Source of the DNA: an uncultured Chlamydiae bacterium
GTDB taxonomy: Bacteria > Chlamydiota > Chlamydiia > Chlamydiales > JAJFMB01
Length of the DNA: 64,000 bases
Direction of reading: 5' to 3'
NCBI GenBank assembly: GCA_963696295.1
Contig: CAVOJR010000002.1
Location: 32,001-96,000, forward strand
The notes beneath the pieces were generated by a model, which was not told the origin of the DNA, did not search any database, and was given only the letters and a program-made list of their open reading frames with translations. Below are positions 13,506-31,651 of the stretch, piece by piece (the first letter of the stretch is position 1; every line of letters begins with the position of its first letter). The position numbers and the translations under genes were made by a program.

Positions 13506-13533
13506 ACACAACATAATTATGATTTAAACAGAA
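13506..13533 (-). other. Degenerate dif-like site (one arm only)
   Basis: ACACAACATAA-TTATGA-tttaaacagaa; left arm identical to the 31624 site. Confidence 0.45.
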
Positions 13534-13783
13534 AATATCACTTTGAAAAGCTTCTATAGTATGATAAGGAAAATTATTAATTTATATAGCAAATAGGGTT
13601 TACGTTATTTTTTCAGCCCATTATGAAGATTACTAATAATAATGTCCATAGGAAGAAACTGTTTAATAGAAAAATAATTTCTTGGTTTATCTTGGAAAAA
13701 CCTCTCTGAAATCTGATAACATTACATTGTTAATAATAAAAGACATGTGATATAAGTCTTAGATTTCAAGTTTAGGATTTGCC

Positions 13784-15274
13784 ATGTTAAAAAATAAATA
13801 TACAAAGAATTTGGATGATTGGAATGAGTATGATTGTAATATAAAGGAAATAAACAGATTTTTGCATGAAATATATTATGATGGATTTACTACAAACTGT
13901 CTTGAAAATGGAAAAAAAATATGGGGATACCCTTTCAGCACATTTCTGAAGAGAGAGGAGCCTGTAGGGTCAAAGCTTTTTTTATTACCAAAAGAGTATG
14001 AACTAATTACTTTGGATGAATTATTATTACCTCCTTTAAGTCCTCCCGATTTTCCAATCCCTATTGACGAACCTAGACTAAGACCAAATGAATGTGAGTA
14101 CCCTGTTTTGTCTAAAGATTCTTTTAAAAAAATTATAGAGAAGCGATCAATATTAATCAATCAGATGAACGAAACAAAAAAATTACTCGAGAAGAAAAAA
14201 AATGAGTTTATAGAGCTTCATTTACAGTTACAGACAACTTTAAATAAGCTCAAAGGCCAATTGAAAGTGTCGAATCCAAAAGAAAATGCTTGTCTTATTG
14301 AAATTGCGCATAGTAAACATGTAATTCAAAAATTTCTTAGAAATAAATTTGAAGTGTATATCGATATTAATAATCGCATAGCCTTAGTTCAATTCAAGTT
14401 TCCAGATTATACTGAAGAAGATTTAGTTATTGGATATACAGGTAAATCTAAGTCCAAAAAACTTGCATCTGAATCGATAAAGAAAAAATTAGTTAAGCAA
14501 TGTCTTTATTCATTAATCATTCGTGCTGCATATTTGGCAGCACATTATAGACAACACAATTTTTATGAAACGGTTGTGGTGAATGTTGAACAGGATTGGT
14601 TCGATCCTGCAACTGGACAATCTCGAAATGGTTTGATAGCATCTCTACAGGCACCTGTCGAATATCTTGGATCTCTTAACCTTGCAAAACTTGATCCTGA
14701 ATCATGCTTCAAGTATCTCAAAGGCATAATTACCCCCTCATTGCAAAACATAAATCCGATAAGGCCGATTTTTGTTCTTAATAAGAATGACAGCAGGATT
14801 GTGACTAATAAAGATATTGACAGTGGATTAGAGCCTAATTCAAATCTTGCTTCATTACCTTGGGAAGATTTTGAGCATCTAGTCGCGCAGTTATTTGAAT
14901 GGGAATTTGCAAGAAATGGTATTGAAGTAAAAGTTACTAGAGTTTCAAGAGATCGAGGAGTTGATGCAATCCTCTATGATCCAGAACCTATCAAAGGAGG
15001 GAAATATGTTCTTCAGGCAAAGCGTTATACAAGAACAGTTGATGTTTCAGCGGTTCGTGATTTATATGGAACAGTACTAAATGAAGGGGCAAACAGAGGA
15101 ATTTTGATTACCACGAGTAGTTATGGACCTGATGCATATGAATTCGCAAAGGATAAACCTATTTCACTAGTAGATGGTCAAAACTTATTACTAATGTTTC
15201 AGAAGCATGGTAAAAAATATCATATCAATTTAGAAGAAGCTCGAGTTATTAATAAGGAATTTAAAGACGTTTAG
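13784..15274 (+). CDS. Mrr-family (type IV) restriction endonuclease with long N-terminal region
   Basis: C-terminal WEDFEHLVAQLF, SRDRGVD, LQAKRY, VRDLYG, GILITTS.Y...A (Mrr_cat). Confidence 0.9.
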   Translation: MLKNKYTKNLDDWNEYDCNIKEINRFLHEIYYDGFTTNCLENGKKIWGYPFSTFLKREEPVGSKLFLLPKEYELITLDELLLPPLSPPDFPIPIDEPRLRPNECEYPVLSKDSFKKIIEKRSILINQMNETKKLLEKKKNEFIELHLQLQTTLNKLKGQLKVSNPKENACLIEIAHSKHVIQKFLRNKFEVYIDINNRIALVQFKFPDYTEEDLVIGYTGKSKSKKLASESIKKKLVKQCLYSLIIRAAYLAAHYRQHNFYETVVVNVEQDWFDPATGQSRNGLIASLQAPVEYLGSLNLAKLDPESCFKYLKGIITPSLQNINPIRPIFVLNKNDSRIVTNKDIDSGLEPNSNLASLPWEDFEHLVAQLFEWEFARNGIEVKVTRVSRDRGVDAILYDPEPIKGGKYVLQAKRYTRTVDVSAVRDLYGTVLNEGANRGILITTSSYGPDAYEFAKDKPISLVDGQNLLLMFQKHGKKYHINLEEARVINKEFKDV

Positions 15275-15569
15275 GTCTCAACTACCCCATCGTAGCCAGT
15301 CAGCCAAAGACAGATAAAGATGGTTATAATTCCCCTGAAAAATAGTCGCATTGGCAGAATCAAGAAAACTCAGGTTAAAAATCTTAATTTAATAATGTTT
15401 AACTCTCTTAATTTCTCTTTTGTCAAAAAAAACTTTTCGTCGAACTCTTTCATATCGCTCGCTTTAAATTAAATAGGTTTTTATTAATTAAGCGCTAATG
15501 CAACAAATATATGTTTAGCAAAAAATACCAGAAACATATAAAATATCCCTCAGTTTTAAGCAAAAAAGG

Positions 15570-28961: not shown

Positions 28962-29425
28962 TTTTTAAGTGGCTGACAGTAAATAATCTCCACCCTCTCT
29001 TACCTATATGATAAACACCGATCAAAAATTAAGGTGATAATTGCGAAGTAGGTTTCAGGCTAGCAATCCAATATTCCTTATGAATATTGTAAATATGAGA
29101 AACCTAACCAGCAGCATTTCTCATTCTTGTACTCCCCCTTCCAAAGTTCAAGCAACATGAGTGGTGGGTATTACCTTTTTTCAAAGGTTGATGGGTTAGG
29201 TACAGAACTGATAATCAACAACTAAAGGCTATTGCATTAATTTCAAGGAGGGTGATACAGTATATAATTTCATGTATTATCCGACCTTGAATGTGACCAT
29301 CCTAGCCGTTGAATTTAAAAAGCTAAGCAAAAAATTGGTTGATTTATCACTATAGCTCTGTTTTCATAAAATGTGAATATTATAAAATATGAAATTAATA
29401 ATGAATTAAATAGGATTAATAGTAA

Positions 29426-31549
29426 ATGAAAGCGTCAAAAGCAGAATTCCTGGAATTATTAAAGAAGTCAACTCAATTCGTTATTCCCATCTATCAACGC
29501 ACATATTCATGGACAGAGAAGGAGTGTCGACAACTATGGGATGATATTATCGCATGTGGAAGAAACAATAATATTCCAGTCCATTTTATCGGTTCCATTG
29601 TTTATGTGGAAAGGGGGTTGTCACAAGTGACTAATCAGGAGCCTTTACTCGTCATTGATGGACAGCAACGTCTTACCACTTTGACGCTTTTATTGGCTGC
29701 TTTATCAAAAGCTGTAGGCACAACGGAGCCTTTTGATGGATTTTCTCAATTCAAAATTTGCAAGGATTACTTACTGAATCCTAAGGAGACAGGTGAGCGG
29801 CGTTACAAACTTTTGCTCACCCAAACGGATAAAGACACCCTTAAATCATTGGTAAGCGAACAACCCAAACCGCACAGTCATTCCCTGCGAATAGAGGAGA
29901 ATTATACTTTGTTCCAAGAGTTGATCAGGAGAGAAGGGGGTGATTTGTTGGATCTTTGCAAGGGTTTGACCAAGCTAGTGGTGGTAGACATCGCCTTGAA
30001 CCGAGAGCAGAATCCGCAGCTCATTTTTGAAAGCATGAATTCAACTGGAAAAGAGTTGAGTCAAGCGGATTTGATCCGCAACTTTATTTTGATGGGGCTT
30101 GAACAGACACTACAAACTCGTCTTTATGAAAATTACTGGCGACCAATGGAGGTGAATTTCGGACAGGAAAACTATGCCTCCCATTTTGATGAATTCATGC
30201 GTCATTACTTAACTGTAAAAACGGGGGATATACCCAATATAAATGATGTTTATGAAACTTTTAAGAAATATGCTCTTAAGCGGGCTGATGCAGTAAGTAA
30301 TGATAGTCATGTGGAGTCACTGCTCAATACAATCAAAGATTATTCGGAGTATTTCTGTGCAATATCCCTAGGCAAGGAGACCGATAAGGAATTGAAGATG
30401 GCGTTTAATGATTTGAGTGAATTAAAGGTTGATGTGGCTTGTCCCTTCCTAATGGAACTGTATTGTGATTACAAGAAAGACATCTTTAGCAAAGGGGATT
30501 TTGTACAAGCTGTTAGATGGGTGGAAGCGTATGTGTTTCGCCGGGTAGTTTGTGAAATACCCTCTAACTCGATGAACAAGACTTTTGCGTCTTTTATTAA
30601 GGCACTTAAAAAAGACCGTTATCTGGAGAGCATTGCCGCGCACTTTCTTCTATTTTCTTCGCAGCGTAGATTTCCAAGTGATGATGAGTTTGAGAACCGT
30701 ATTCAAGTCCGGAAACTATACAAGTTACGTAACCCCAAATACTGTTTGCGCCGTATTGAAAATCACGGGCGAAAGGAATGCGTTCCTGTAGATGATGAAT
30801 ACACTGTAGAACATATCATGCCGCAAAATGAAAATCTGAGCGCAGCTTGGCAGGCGGAACTGGGAAGCGAATGGAAACTCGTTCAGCAAACTTGGCAGCA
30901 TACATTGGGCAACCTGACACTCACTGGCTATAACTCGGAATATCGTGATCGGCCATTTATTCAAAAACGGGATATGGACGGTGGATTCAAAAACAGTCCG
31001 CTCAATTTAAATAAAGATCTGAATCAGGTGACTGTTTGGAACGAATCGGCGATTAAGGAGAGAGCAAACCGACTTGCCAAACAGGCGGTAGTAATATGGA
31101 ACTCACCAAAATTGGACGAAAGTATTTTGGCTGGTTATCGACCCAAAGTTAAACCGGGATCTGAATATACAATAAACGACCATCCATCCCTACTTAACTC
31201 GCCATTGCGTACCCTGTTTGAGGCGTTTAGGACAAAAGTATTAGAACTTGATCCACCATACATCAGGGAAGAGTGGTTAAAATATTATGTGGCTTACAAA
31301 GTCGAAACAAACTTTGTGGATGTTATGCCAAAGCCACAGTTGAGGCGCTTACAACTTTCATTAAAAATGAGTATTTCCGAGGTTAATGATCCCAAAAAGT
31401 TATGTAAAGACGTGTCCCGTGTGGGTCATATGGGAAATGGTGATGTCGAAGTCTCATTATCTTCACTTGAGGATTTGCCTTATGTGATCGAGTTAGTCCA
31501 GCAAGCTCTTGAAAAGCAATTGGTAGGGGTCTCAATTCATGAGAAATGA
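29426..31549 (+). CDS. GmrSD-type (DUF262 + DUF1524) modification-dependent restriction enzyme with DUF5655-like C-terminus
   Basis: IPIYQRTYSW, IDGQQRLTT, IFESMNSTG, VEHIMPQ, LGNLTL..N, C-terminal KYYVAYK..NFVDV..GNGDVEV. Confidence 0.92.
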   Translation: MKASKAEFLELLKKSTQFVIPIYQRTYSWTEKECRQLWDDIIACGRNNNIPVHFIGSIVYVERGLSQVTNQEPLLVIDGQQRLTTLTLLLAALSKAVGTTEPFDGFSQFKICKDYLLNPKETGERRYKLLLTQTDKDTLKSLVSEQPKPHSHSLRIEENYTLFQELIRREGGDLLDLCKGLTKLVVVDIALNREQNPQLIFESMNSTGKELSQADLIRNFILMGLEQTLQTRLYENYWRPMEVNFGQENYASHFDEFMRHYLTVKTGDIPNINDVYETFKKYALKRADAVSNDSHVESLLNTIKDYSEYFCAISLGKETDKELKMAFNDLSELKVDVACPFLMELYCDYKKDIFSKGDFVQAVRWVEAYVFRRVVCEIPSNSMNKTFASFIKALKKDRYLESIAAHFLLFSSQRRFPSDDEFENRIQVRKLYKLRNPKYCLRRIENHGRKECVPVDDEYTVEHIMPQNENLSAAWQAELGSEWKLVQQTWQHTLGNLTLTGYNSEYRDRPFIQKRDMDGGFKNSPLNLNKDLNQVTVWNESAIKERANRLAKQAVVIWNSPKLDESILAGYRPKVKPGSEYTINDHPSLLNSPLRTLFEAFRTKVLELDPPYIREEWLKYYVAYKVETNFVDVMPKPQLRRLQLSLKMSISEVNDPKKLCKDVSRVGHMGNGDVEVSLSSLEDLPYVIELVQQALEKQLVGVSIHEK

Positions 31550-31623
31550 AAAAAATGGCTTATCCTATTTTTAAGACGTTTCAAAGGCCAATGCAAGCCC
31601 GTTCTGTTCAAACGCACCCCTTA

Positions 31624-31651
31624 ACACAACATAATTATTATTATCAGTCTT
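31624..31651 (-). other. dif-like (XerC/XerD-type) 11-6-11 site
   Basis: Minus strand AAGACTGATAA-TAATAA-TTATGTTGTGT. Confidence 0.75.

What the first reader, a model, noticed from the sequence alone, without database searches (positions are those of the whole stretch)
13506..31651. Array of co-oriented dif-like sites delimiting defence cassettes (possible Xer-built 'defence integron')
Seen: three clean 11-6-11 sites on the minus strand, all intergenic and in the same orientation. They are 17731 GCCTCTGATAA-TATAAA-TTGTGTTGTGC, 28934 CCGACTGATAA-GATAGG-TTATGGTGTGT and 31624 AAGACTGATAA-TAATAA-TTATGTTGTGT. Two degenerate copies lie at 13506 and 16227. I saw none elsewhere in the window. The intervals hold [Mrr + decayed ORF], [decayed ORF], [whole 4-gene AAA/rSAM/kinase-helicase operon] and [GmrSD]. 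Known: the inner ATAA-N6-TTAT symmetry and TTATGTT arm are hallmarks of XerC/XerD dif sites; Acinetobacter pdif modules usually alternate in orientation, while IMEX integration leaves direct copies. Inference: cassettes were added serially by host Xer recombination, and the differing 6-bp spacers would limit re-excision. Copies are better preserved toward 31624, which may indicate the order of acquisition. I am not aware of this being described in Chlamydiae.
Basis: partly seen in the sequence, partly recalled or inferred. Interest (0 to 1): 0.9.

Follow-up and report, generated by a model that had tools for sequence, protein, structure and literature searches.

The report
Chromosome-type dif sites between chlamydial defence genes
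Copies of the short DNA site that this chlamydia-like bacterium uses to unlink its chromosomes after replication sit between separately acquired, partly dead anti-phage genes, which suggests, but does not prove, that the cell's own Xer enzymes helped stitch this gene island together.

Summary
Three full 11-6-11 sites (17731, 28934, 31624) and two half-sites with an intact XerD arm (13506, 16227) lie co-oriented and intergenic in 18 kb. They match the genome's own dif candidate (C1:3021565, intergenic, at the edge of the GC-skew terminus plateau), whose motif is shared across the order. XerD and a XerC-like gene are present. A profile of relatives' dif sites gives 4 hits of 18.9 bits or more on the 135-kb contig against 2 on the 3.3-Mb contig.

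Corrections:
- The '4-gene operon' is not whole; genes 3 and 4 are broken.
- A sixth site lies just outside the window, in the opposite orientation.
- The contig is not a separate plasmid. It joins the chromosome, about 350 kb from dif.

The Xer-built reading is only circumstantial. Each interval holds one defence unit of different G+C. However, the same operon is intact in 5 other chlamydial genomes with no such sites nearby, and its homology ends 215-257 bp short of the sites. IS3-type relics abut two sites. No excision or alternative occupancy could be shown.

Best reading (0.45): frozen scars of Xer-site-mediated joining of dif-bearing circular DNAs, later reshaped by IS elements. This scan has noted similar dif-like arrays on other DNA before, but not in Chlamydiae.

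The parts
13506..13533 (+). S1: half-site. The XerD arm is identical to the chromosomal dif candidate; the XerC arm is degenerate.
16227..16254 (+). S2: half-site. The XerD arm has 1 mismatch; the XerC arm is degenerate.
17731..17758 (+). S3: full dif-like site, 21.4 bits, spacer TTTATA.
28934..28961 (+). S4: full dif-like site, 22.2 bits, spacer CCTATC.
31624..31651 (+). S5: best dif-like site, 28.2 bits, spacer TTATTA. The XerD arm is perfect and carries the CCCCTTA flank also seen at the chromosomal dif candidate.
28966..28989 (+). 24-nt flank lying 4 nt beyond the XerC arm of S4. It is shared (25 of 27 nt) with the sixth site at C2:26625-26652, outside the window.
   Evidence: not found beyond chance in 400 other genomes
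12854..13411 (+). Serine recombinase (resolvase) gene, intact, 95 bp upstream of S1.
13437..13475 (+). Relic of the right end of an IS3-family element, 30 bp before S1.
13784..15274 (+). K1 cargo: Mrr-type type IV restriction enzyme, intact. The interval has 32.6% G+C.
   Evidence: no homologue in 330 other genomes of the order
16376..17712 (+). K2 cargo: remains of one gene split over three reading frames (32.2% G+C). It shows 63.5% DNA identity over 735 bp to a 253-aa ORF in G135.
18466..28469 (-). K3 cargo: four-gene defence operon. The AAA gene (26610-28469) and radical-SAM gene (25942-26613) are intact. Gene 3 (kinase-DUF4011-helicase) is split into at least 5 frame pieces, and gene 4 is fragmentary.
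28853..28917 (+). Relic of the left end of an IS3-family element (94% identity to C1:1462821). It is cut off 16 bp before S4.
29426..31549 (+). K4 cargo: GmrSD-type (DUF262/DUF1524) type IV restriction enzyme, intact. The interval has 39.7% G+C.
   Evidence: no homologue in 400 other genomes of the order
31773..32672 (-). APH-like kinase, a conserved chlamydial gene. Its usual downstream partner, PNPOx, is missing here; the break lies at about 31776.
7902..8441 (+). PNPOx homologue. It is the displaced and inverted partner of APH, now 23.8 kb away.

Best explanation
The repeats are genuine copies of this lineage's XerC/XerD dif motif. They lie in a low-G+C, plasmid-like island of the chromosome, about 350 kb from the real dif. 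They most likely are scars left when circular DNAs that carried a dif-type site were joined to one another, or to a resident site, by the host Xer recombinases. Such DNAs could be small plasmids or IMEX-like elements, and each would have brought one anti-phage unit. Joining in this way leaves co-oriented hybrid sites at the junctions. The array is now frozen. Two sites have lost the XerC arm, and the intact sites have unlike spacers. IS3-family insertions and deletions, an inversion and gene decay have since reshaped the region.

Shown: the identity of the motif, its enrichment, its placement between units, and the presence of the enzymes. Inferred: that Xer recombination made the junctions.
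For: Motif identity:
- The dif candidate C1:3021565 is the top hit on the 3.3-Mb contig (32.4 bits; the next hits are 22.0 and 15.5).
- It is intergenic.
- It lies at the shoulder of the GC-skew plateau (3.04-3.14 Mb), 109 kb from the skew maximum.
- The same motif recurs in 27 of 41 and in 245 of 401 genomes of the order.
- S3-S6 differ from the dif candidate by 0-2 nt in the XerD arm and 2-4 nt in the XerC arm.

Enzymes: XerD scores 333.1 bits (cut-off 329.6). XerC scores 320.4 bits, its best match but below the cut-off of 335.15.

Enrichment.

Placement: each interval holds one defence unit with little else.
- G+C is 32.6, 32.2, 43.6 and 39.7% in the four intervals.
- The closest relatives lie in different phyla.
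- Mrr and GmrSD were not found in 330 and 400 other genomes of the order.

Background rate: chlamydial DNA rarely has such sites. There was 1 hit of 15 bits or more in 427 kb around APH homologues, and none of 11 bits or more in 87 kb around the K3 homologues.

A chlamydial megaplasmid, Simkania pSn, carries one intergenic dif-like site, so dif-bearing mobile DNA exists in the phylum.

S4 and the sixth site share 25 of 27 nt beyond the XerC arm, so the sites have been copied or exchanged together with their flank.
Against: - No relative shows the same site with a different cargo, or the same cargo bounded by sites.
- The K3 operon is intact in 5 of 400 other genomes and has no dif-like site within 19-kb loci. 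In G303 it lies near a tyrosine integrase.
- Its DNA homology (window 18015-28718) stops 257 and 215 bp from S3 and S4. On the right side it ends inside a truncated neighbouring gene.
- The IS3-type relics next to S1 and S4 fit an IS-mediated insertion of the whole 13476-28852 block.
- The APH|PNPOx break lies about 125 bp from S5.
- 80 metagenomic GmrSD loci (641 kb) have no site of this type.
- The region is not at dif, where known IMEXs integrate.
Confidence: 0.45

Rival explanations
1. Passenger relics. The sites are multimer-resolution or dif-type sites that arrived inside several plasmid or island fragments. Those fragments were joined by other means: IS3 elements, serine or tyrosine recombinases, or illegitimate recombination. 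Xer did not make the junctions, and the placement between units is secondary.
For: - IS3-type relics lie 16-30 bp from S1 and S4, arranged as expected for an IS-flanked inserted block.
- Several recombinase genes or remains lie nearby: an intact resolvase at 12854, a resolvase pseudogene at about 7616, and integrase fragments at C2:22.5 and 25.1 kb.
- A fragment of a type IV coupling protein gene is present.
- K3 homology ends more than 200 bp from the sites.
- Simkania pSn has one such site per 132 kb.
Against: - Five sites in 18 kb, one at every unit border and all co-oriented, is far denser than one per plasmid.
- The flanks of the sites are unrelated to one another except for S4 and S6, so the sites are not copies of one fragment.
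Confidence: 0.25
2. The sites are used by another recombinase, not XerC/D. Candidates are the island's own tyrosine recombinase, now a pseudogene, or the adjacent serine resolvase. In this reading the array is the remnant of a dedicated cassette system.
For: - The sixth site lies 1.1 kb from an integrase fragment.
- The resolvase gene ends 95 bp before S1.
- The two closest GmrSD relatives that have upstream sequence carry a resolvase directly upstream. That is 2 of the 61 loci that have at least 900 bp upstream.
- The chlamydial XerC arm resembles, from my recollection only, a resolvase half-site.
Against: - Both arms, plus 7 nt beyond the XerD arm, match the host's chromosomal dif candidate.
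- The left arm is unlike the right arm, so the site is not a resolvase dyad.
- No copies of the motif lie upstream of the resolvase gene.
- The two resolvases are only 39% identical.
Confidence: 0.12
3. An active Xer-dependent gene-capture platform: a true 'defence integron' that still gains and loses cassettes.
For: - S5, S4 and S3 keep both arms.
- XerC/D genes are present.
- The cargo is all defence-related.
Against: - The spacers of the intact sites differ at 2-5 positions. In Acinetobacter, recombination was seen only between spacers that were identical or differed at one base (PMC13141974, passages read).
- K3 and K2 are pseudogenised.
- No cassette was found elsewhere bounded by sites.
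Confidence: 0.08
4. Chance matches in AT-rich intergenic DNA.
For: The intervals are AT-rich: 32-40% G+C.
Against: - 0.03 matches are expected against 3 seen, using dinucleotide-preserving shuffles.
- The exact XerD 11-mer occurs once in the 3.3-Mb contig, at dif, and twice in the array.
Confidence: 0.01

Closest known systems
dif modules bounded by pdif sites on Acinetobacter Rep_3/OrfX plasmids (PMC13141974, passages read; PMC6449649 and PMC12907356, abstracts in search listing only)
   Same: - 28-bp XerC-6-XerD sites copied from the host dif lie between small accessory units.
- The host enzymes are presumed to act, with no dedicated integrase.
- Cargo includes stress and defence-type genes.
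- Sites decay and modules fuse.
   Different: - There the sites alternate in orientation (C and D modules). Here five sites are co-oriented.
- There the modules recur in many plasmids bounded by the same sites. Here none was found elsewhere with sites.
- The location here is a chromosomal island, not a Rep_3 plasmid.
- The phylum is different.
IMEX arrays at dif: CTX/TLC/RS1 of Vibrio cholerae and the gonococcal genetic island (PMC5357621, PMC4246890 and PMC6744903, abstracts in search listing only; details recalled)
   Same: - Direct repeats of dif-like sites flank elements that lack an integrase.
- Serial integration gives co-oriented arrays.
- One good site sits beside degenerate ones.
- Unlike spacers or arms block re-excision.
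   Different: - Known IMEXs sit at the chromosomal dif, whereas this array lies 348-366 kb away.
- The units here have no phage or replication genes.
- The degenerate arm here is the XerC arm.
Plasmid multimer-resolution sites of the cer/psi type (recalled), and the single dif-like site of Simkania pSn
   Same: A host-dif-like core sits on mobile DNA. S4 and S6 share a flank on the XerC side, which is where cer and psi carry their accessory sequences.
   Different: There are six sites instead of one. The shared flank is only about 25 nt long and is not conserved in other genomes. The contig joins the chromosome.
Integron (IntI plus attC)
   Same: A row of single-unit cassettes separated by recombination sites.
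   Different: There is no integron integrase. The sites are 28-bp dif-type cores, not attC. The cassettes have their own promoters and mixed orientations.

Membership tests
XerC/XerD dif-type site | 11-6-11 layout with an inner ATAA/TTAT dyad | tested here: met
   Met for S3, S4, S5 and S6. S1 and S2 keep only the XerD half.
XerC/XerD dif-type site | Both arms resemble the host's chromosomal dif | tested here: met
   For S3-S6 the XerD arm has 0-2 mismatches and the XerC arm 2-4 mismatches, out of 11 each, against C1:3021565. The dif candidate itself is supported by skew position, uniqueness and conservation across the order.
XerC/XerD dif-type site | Host encodes XerC and XerD | tested here: met
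   XerD (TIGR02225) scores 333.1 bits, above the 329.6 cut-off. XerC (TIGR02224) scores 320.4 bits; it is the best match but falls below the 335.15 cut-off.
XerC/XerD dif-type site | Bound and recombined by XerC/D | not testable with these tools
   Needs EMSA or a recombination assay.
Acinetobacter-type dif modules | Adjacent sites inversely oriented (alternating C and D modules) | tested here: not met
   S1-S5 are all in the same orientation; only S6 is inverted. The rule is taken from PMC13141974.
Acinetobacter-type dif modules | The same module is found in other replicons bounded by such sites | tested here: not met
   K3 occurs in 5 other genomes without sites. K1 and K4 were not found in 330 and 400 genomes. 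80 metagenomic GmrSD loci have no sites.
Acinetobacter-type dif modules | Carried on a Rep_3/OrfX plasmid backbone | tested here: not met
   The contig joins the chromosome. No ParA or ParB is encoded on it. No Rep domain appeared among 92 ORFs scanned against Pfam.
Acinetobacter-type dif modules | Partner sites have identical or near-identical spacers | tested here: not met
   Only S1/S5 differ by 1 position, and S1 lacks a XerC arm. The intact sites differ from one another at 2-5 positions.
IMEX | Integrated at the chromosomal dif | tested here: not met
   The array lies at combined coordinates 3,369,850-3,387,995, against dif at 3,021,565.
IMEX | Flanked by direct repeats of dif-like sites, with no integrase of its own | tested here: met
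   The sites are co-oriented and there is no tyrosine recombinase between 13.5 and 31.7 kb.
Integron | IntI integrase beside the array | tested here: not met
   A Phage_integrase search of the whole genome found 5 genes on C1 and 2 fragments at C2:22.5-25.5 kb, none next to the array. The integron-integrase models scored far below their cut-offs.
cer/psi-type plasmid resolution site | Conserved accessory sequence beside the XerC arm | tested here: inconclusive
   A 25-of-27-nt flank is shared by S4 and S6 only. It is not conserved in 400 genomes.

The most novel reading that the evidence does not exclude
Chlamydiae, whose intracellular life limits gene exchange, may use their housekeeping XerC/D enzymes and dif-like sites as a general gene-capture route. 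In this reading the route assembles defence islands from small integrase-less circles. It works away from the terminus and uses co-oriented sites whose unlike spacers lock each capture in place. That would be a Xer-based counterpart of the integron, distinct from both Acinetobacter dif modules and IMEXs.
Probability: 0.15. Interest if true: 0.8.

Novelty: new variant of a known kind. Interest (0 to 1): 0.5.

Why it matters
If Xer made these junctions, the housekeeping dimer-resolution system would be a route for horizontal gene gain in Chlamydiae. That phylum has few known mobile-element mechanisms. It would also extend dif-module/IMEX biology to a chromosomal, non-terminus, direct-repeat form with anti-phage cargo.

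Even if the sites are only relics, two points stand. Ectopic host-type dif sites can persist in a chromosome 350 kb from the terminus, and chlamydial mobile DNA (pSn, and this island) carries dif-type sites. In the library I could search, no paper describes either point for Chlamydiae.

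Tried and rejected
- Sequencing runs: only one soil run held 0.06 of the sampled words. Laying its contigs gave short, mostly under-90%-identity pieces and no joints, so it says nothing on excision.
- Plasmid collection: no DNA match to 12000-33000 and no match to the UCH protein.
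- Metagenome pattern scan with the extended site: 0 hits.
- GmrSD relatives in metagenomes: at most 67% identity, with no chlamydial-type sites (1 chance hit in 641 kb).
- Second arrays in relatives:
  - The second match on G039:C28 is weak (14.4 bits) and falls within a listed ORF.
  - The two G016 sites are the same locus assembled twice.
  - G178 has an interesting pair of sites that I did not resolve.
- Ancestral resolvase-GmrSD unit: the resolvases are only 39% identical and the pairing is seen in 2 of 61 loci. This is weak.
- A possible sixth in-window relic at 7874-7911, and inverted repeats at the two APH/PNPOx breakpoints: alignment scores are no better than shuffles, so both were rejected.
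- Extra IS-end similarity right of S5: not found by blastn.
- The 24-nt flank of S4/S6 as a conserved accessory or IS end: 5 matches at 3 mismatches in 400 other genomes against 4 control matches, which is chance level.
- C2 as a plasmid: rejected after the contig-end gene was found whole in an independent protein record.
- Pattern of exact protein matches in other assemblies: patchy, and it allows no inference on cassette absence.

Full report
THE OBSERVATION

I read them on the + strand as XerD arm, spacer, XerC arm. S3 (17731), S4 (28934) and S5 (31624) are full 11-6-11 sites. S1 (13506) and S2 (16227) keep a perfect or near-perfect XerD arm but have lost the XerC arm.

A pattern search finds 3 matches in the window. 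Dinucleotide-preserving shuffles give 0.03 expected, and 0 of 100 shuffles reached 3. Over the whole 3.43-Mb assembly, 6 places match with at most 2 mismatches, and 3 of them are these sites.

THE HOST'S dif AND ENZYMES

The best match elsewhere is C1:3021565, ACACAACATAA-CATACA-TTATCGGACGC.
- It is intergenic.
- It is the top hit on the 3.3-Mb contig for a matrix built from 23 sites of relatives (one of the 23 is this C1 site itself): 32.4 bits, against 22.0 and 15.5 for the next hits.
- It lies where the cumulative GC skew flattens (plateau 3.04-3.14 Mb, maximum at 3,130,255, minimum at 1,408,769).

The same motif, with a spacer often close to CATAYA, turns up in 27 of 41 relatives and in 245 of 401 genomes of the order. 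That includes the small 1.0-1.3-Mb genomes, usually once per genome. Kono et al. predicted dif sites in all 14 Chlamydiae genomes they studied (PMC3025954, passages read).

The genome encodes XerD (333.1 bits, cut-off 329.6). It also encodes a XerC-like protein (320.4 bits; best match, but under the cut-off of 335.15).

So the window's sites are copies of the host-type dif. The XerD arms differ from the dif candidate by 0-2 bases. The XerC arms of S3-S5 differ by 2-4 bases. S4 and S5 also share the 7 nt (CCCYTNA) that precede the XerD arm at the chromosomal site.

The exact XerD 11-mer occurs once on C1, at dif, and twice on C2, at S1 and S5. XerD arms of 16.5 bits or more number 4 on C1 and 3 on C2; those 3 are all in the array and all on the same strand.

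A sixth full site scores 18.9 bits. It lies at C2:26625-26652, 5.3 kb left of the window start, in the opposite orientation. It shares with S4 25 of 27 nt just beyond the XerC arm. That flank is not found beyond chance in 400 other genomes.

WHAT LIES BETWEEN THE SITES

- K1 (13534-16226, 32.6% G+C) holds an intact Mrr-type type IV restriction gene.
- K2 (16255-17730, 32.2% G+C) holds the remains of one gene in three frames.
- K3 (17759-28933, 43.6% G+C) holds one operon.
- K4 (28962-31623, 39.7% G+C) holds an intact GmrSD-type gene.

The operon is not whole. A Rhizobium plasmid carries the intact form: an AAA gene of 607 aa, a 4Fe-4S gene of 222 aa, a 2086-aa kinase-DUF4011-helicase gene, and a 452-aa gene. 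Against that form, genes 1 and 2 are intact here. Gene 3 is spread over at least five frame pieces, and gene 4 is fragmentary.

GmrSD has its closest relatives (about 60-67% identity) on plasmids and contigs of Alphaproteobacteria, Cyanobacteria and unnamed metagenomes. It was not found in 400 other genomes of the order. Mrr was not found in 330.

WHERE THE REGION SITS

The window's contig C2 (135,310 bp, 42.9% G+C, against 47.1% for C1) looked like a plasmid, but it is joined to the chromosome.
- An ORF with a ribosome-binding site and start codon runs off the 3' end of C2. It continues in frame into an ORF that runs off the 3' end of C1.
- An independent 163-aa database protein, 99% identical, has exactly this joined sequence.
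- With C2 included, the point opposite the skew minimum (3,125,519) falls on the skew maximum.
- C2 has no ParA or ParB.
- It does carry a fragment of a coupling-protein gene, integrase fragments, two resolvase genes or remains, IS relics and other defence genes.

I therefore read it as an integrated, plasmid-like island. The array lies 348-366 kb from dif. In the joined orientation it is inverted relative to dif. The other joint, from the C2 start to the C1 start, is not resolved.

TESTS OF THE XER-BUILT READING

1. The same cargo elsewhere. The radical-SAM gene of K3 sits in a 90%-identity cluster of 30 proteins from several chlamydial lineages. The operon is present and intact in 5 of 400 other genomes, from five families. 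The radical-SAM protein there is 83-93% identical, and G303 shows 81.5% DNA identity over 10.7 kb. That indicates recent transfer among chlamydiae. None of the five loci (11-19 kb each, 87 kb in all) has a dif-like site of 11 bits or more, or a single arm of 15 bits or more. In G303 a tyrosine integrase lies about 2 kb from the operon. DNA homology covers window 18015-28718. It therefore ends 257 bp from S3 and 215 bp from S4, and on the right it ends inside the first approximately 120 nt of a neighbouring gene that is truncated here.

2. The same backbone elsewhere. The APH-like gene right of S5 is conserved in chlamydial MAGs at 73-84% identity. In at least 8 of 30 loci it is followed directly by a PNPOx gene. 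Here that pair is split at about 31776, some 125 bp from S5, and PNPOx now lies 23.8 kb away in inverted orientation. So the whole stretch is an insertion or rearrangement, but the break is not in a dif core. The 30 loci (427 kb) hold one site of 15 bits or more.

3. Other agents. A 65-bp left end of an IS3-family element stops 16 bp before S4. A 39-bp right end stops 30 bp before S1. This arrangement is what would remain if the block 13476-28852 had come in between two IS copies.

4. Excision. The only public run with any shared words gave no joints.

5. Spacers. The intact sites differ from one another at 2-5 of 6 positions, and from dif at 3-5. In Acinetobacter, rearrangements were seen between sites whose spacers were identical or differed at one base (PMC13141974, passages read). 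The array should therefore be inert now.

WEIGHING

That these are host-type Xer sites, and non-random, is secure. That they mark every border between independently acquired defence units, in one orientation, is hard to explain if they were mere passengers. It is what serial joining of dif-bearing circles would leave.

A chlamydial megaplasmid, Simkania pSn, carries one intergenic dif-like site, so such DNA exists in the phylum.

Against this, every comparative test that could have shown mobility came back empty, and IS elements clearly took part in shaping the region. I put Xer-made junctions, now frozen, at 0.45. Passenger relics joined by other means get 0.25, another recombinase 0.12, an active platform 0.08, and chance about 0.01.

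COMPARISON WITH KNOWN SYSTEMS

The array works most like an IMEX array: direct repeats and no integrase. It looks like Acinetobacter dif modules: small accessory units between host-dif copies. It fails defining features of both. It is not at dif. The sites do not alternate. It is not on a Rep_3 plasmid. No module recurs with its sites. It is not an integron.

Searches of the held library for Xer/dif modules or IMEXs in Chlamydiae found nothing relevant. Defence-type cargo in dif modules is mentioned for Acinetobacter (PMC9455709, listing only). Earlier notes of this scan describe similar dif-like arrays on other DNA, in Acinetobacter prophages, Chloroflexota, Acidimicrobiia and archaea, but not in Chlamydiae.

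VERDICT

The feature is real and unusual. The mechanistic claim is attractive but unproven, and partly undercut by the comparative results. Novelty: a new variant of a known kind. Interest: 0.5.

Noticed in passing
window 18015-28718; loci L188-L192: The four-gene AAA / radical-SAM / kinase-DUF4011-helicase operon is intact in 5 of 400 other genomes, from five families of the order. DNA identity is up to 81.5% over 10.7 kb, which points to recent horizontal spread among chlamydiae. In G303 it lies beside a tyrosine integrase. Homologues at about 60% amino-acid identity sit on Rhizobium plasmids.
   Followed up: partly
C2 3' end and C1 3' end (outside the window); protein P0001: The two contigs of the assembly join. 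A 163-aa gene is split across the contig ends and is whole in an independent record. The 135-kb contig is therefore chromosomal, or an integrated element, not a free plasmid.
   Followed up: yes
G178:C33:46659, G178:C23:3774, G178:C38:113328 (loci L193-L195): Another genome of the order has two dif-like sites with the same XerD arm and spacer but different XerC arms, on different contigs. One of those contigs is 6 kb with 37% G+C. A third, better site is also present. This may be a Xer integration or cointegration pair.
   Followed up: partly
window 31773-32672 and 7902-8441: An APH-like kinase and a PNPOx-like gene form an adjacent pair in at least 8 chlamydial loci. APH homologues also occur in Holosporales, Coxiella-like and Orientia records. 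Here the pair is split and inverted.
   Followed up: partly
window 11815-12453: The hexapeptide transferase belongs to a 90%-identity cluster of 70 proteins, which their sources name CatB-related or virginiamycin A acetyltransferase. The members come from many chlamydial MAGs and from Rhabdochlamydia.
   Followed up: no
window 7616-7800: Remains of a second serine recombinase gene (N-terminal resolvase motif) lie just upstream of the displaced PNPOx gene.
   Followed up: no
NC_015710 (Simkania pSn) 46630-46653: The 132-kb Simkania plasmid has one intergenic dif-like site (1 mismatch to the pattern). It lies between an ATP-binding protein gene and a heavy-metal efflux cluster.
   Followed up: partly
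C2:8630-18075 (outside the window; locus L038): Another defence-type cluster sits on the same island: an SNF2 helicase, a C-5 cytosine methylase, a Vsr endonuclease, and an 1153-aa RNase_H_2/AAA_11/AAA_12 helicase.
   Followed up: no
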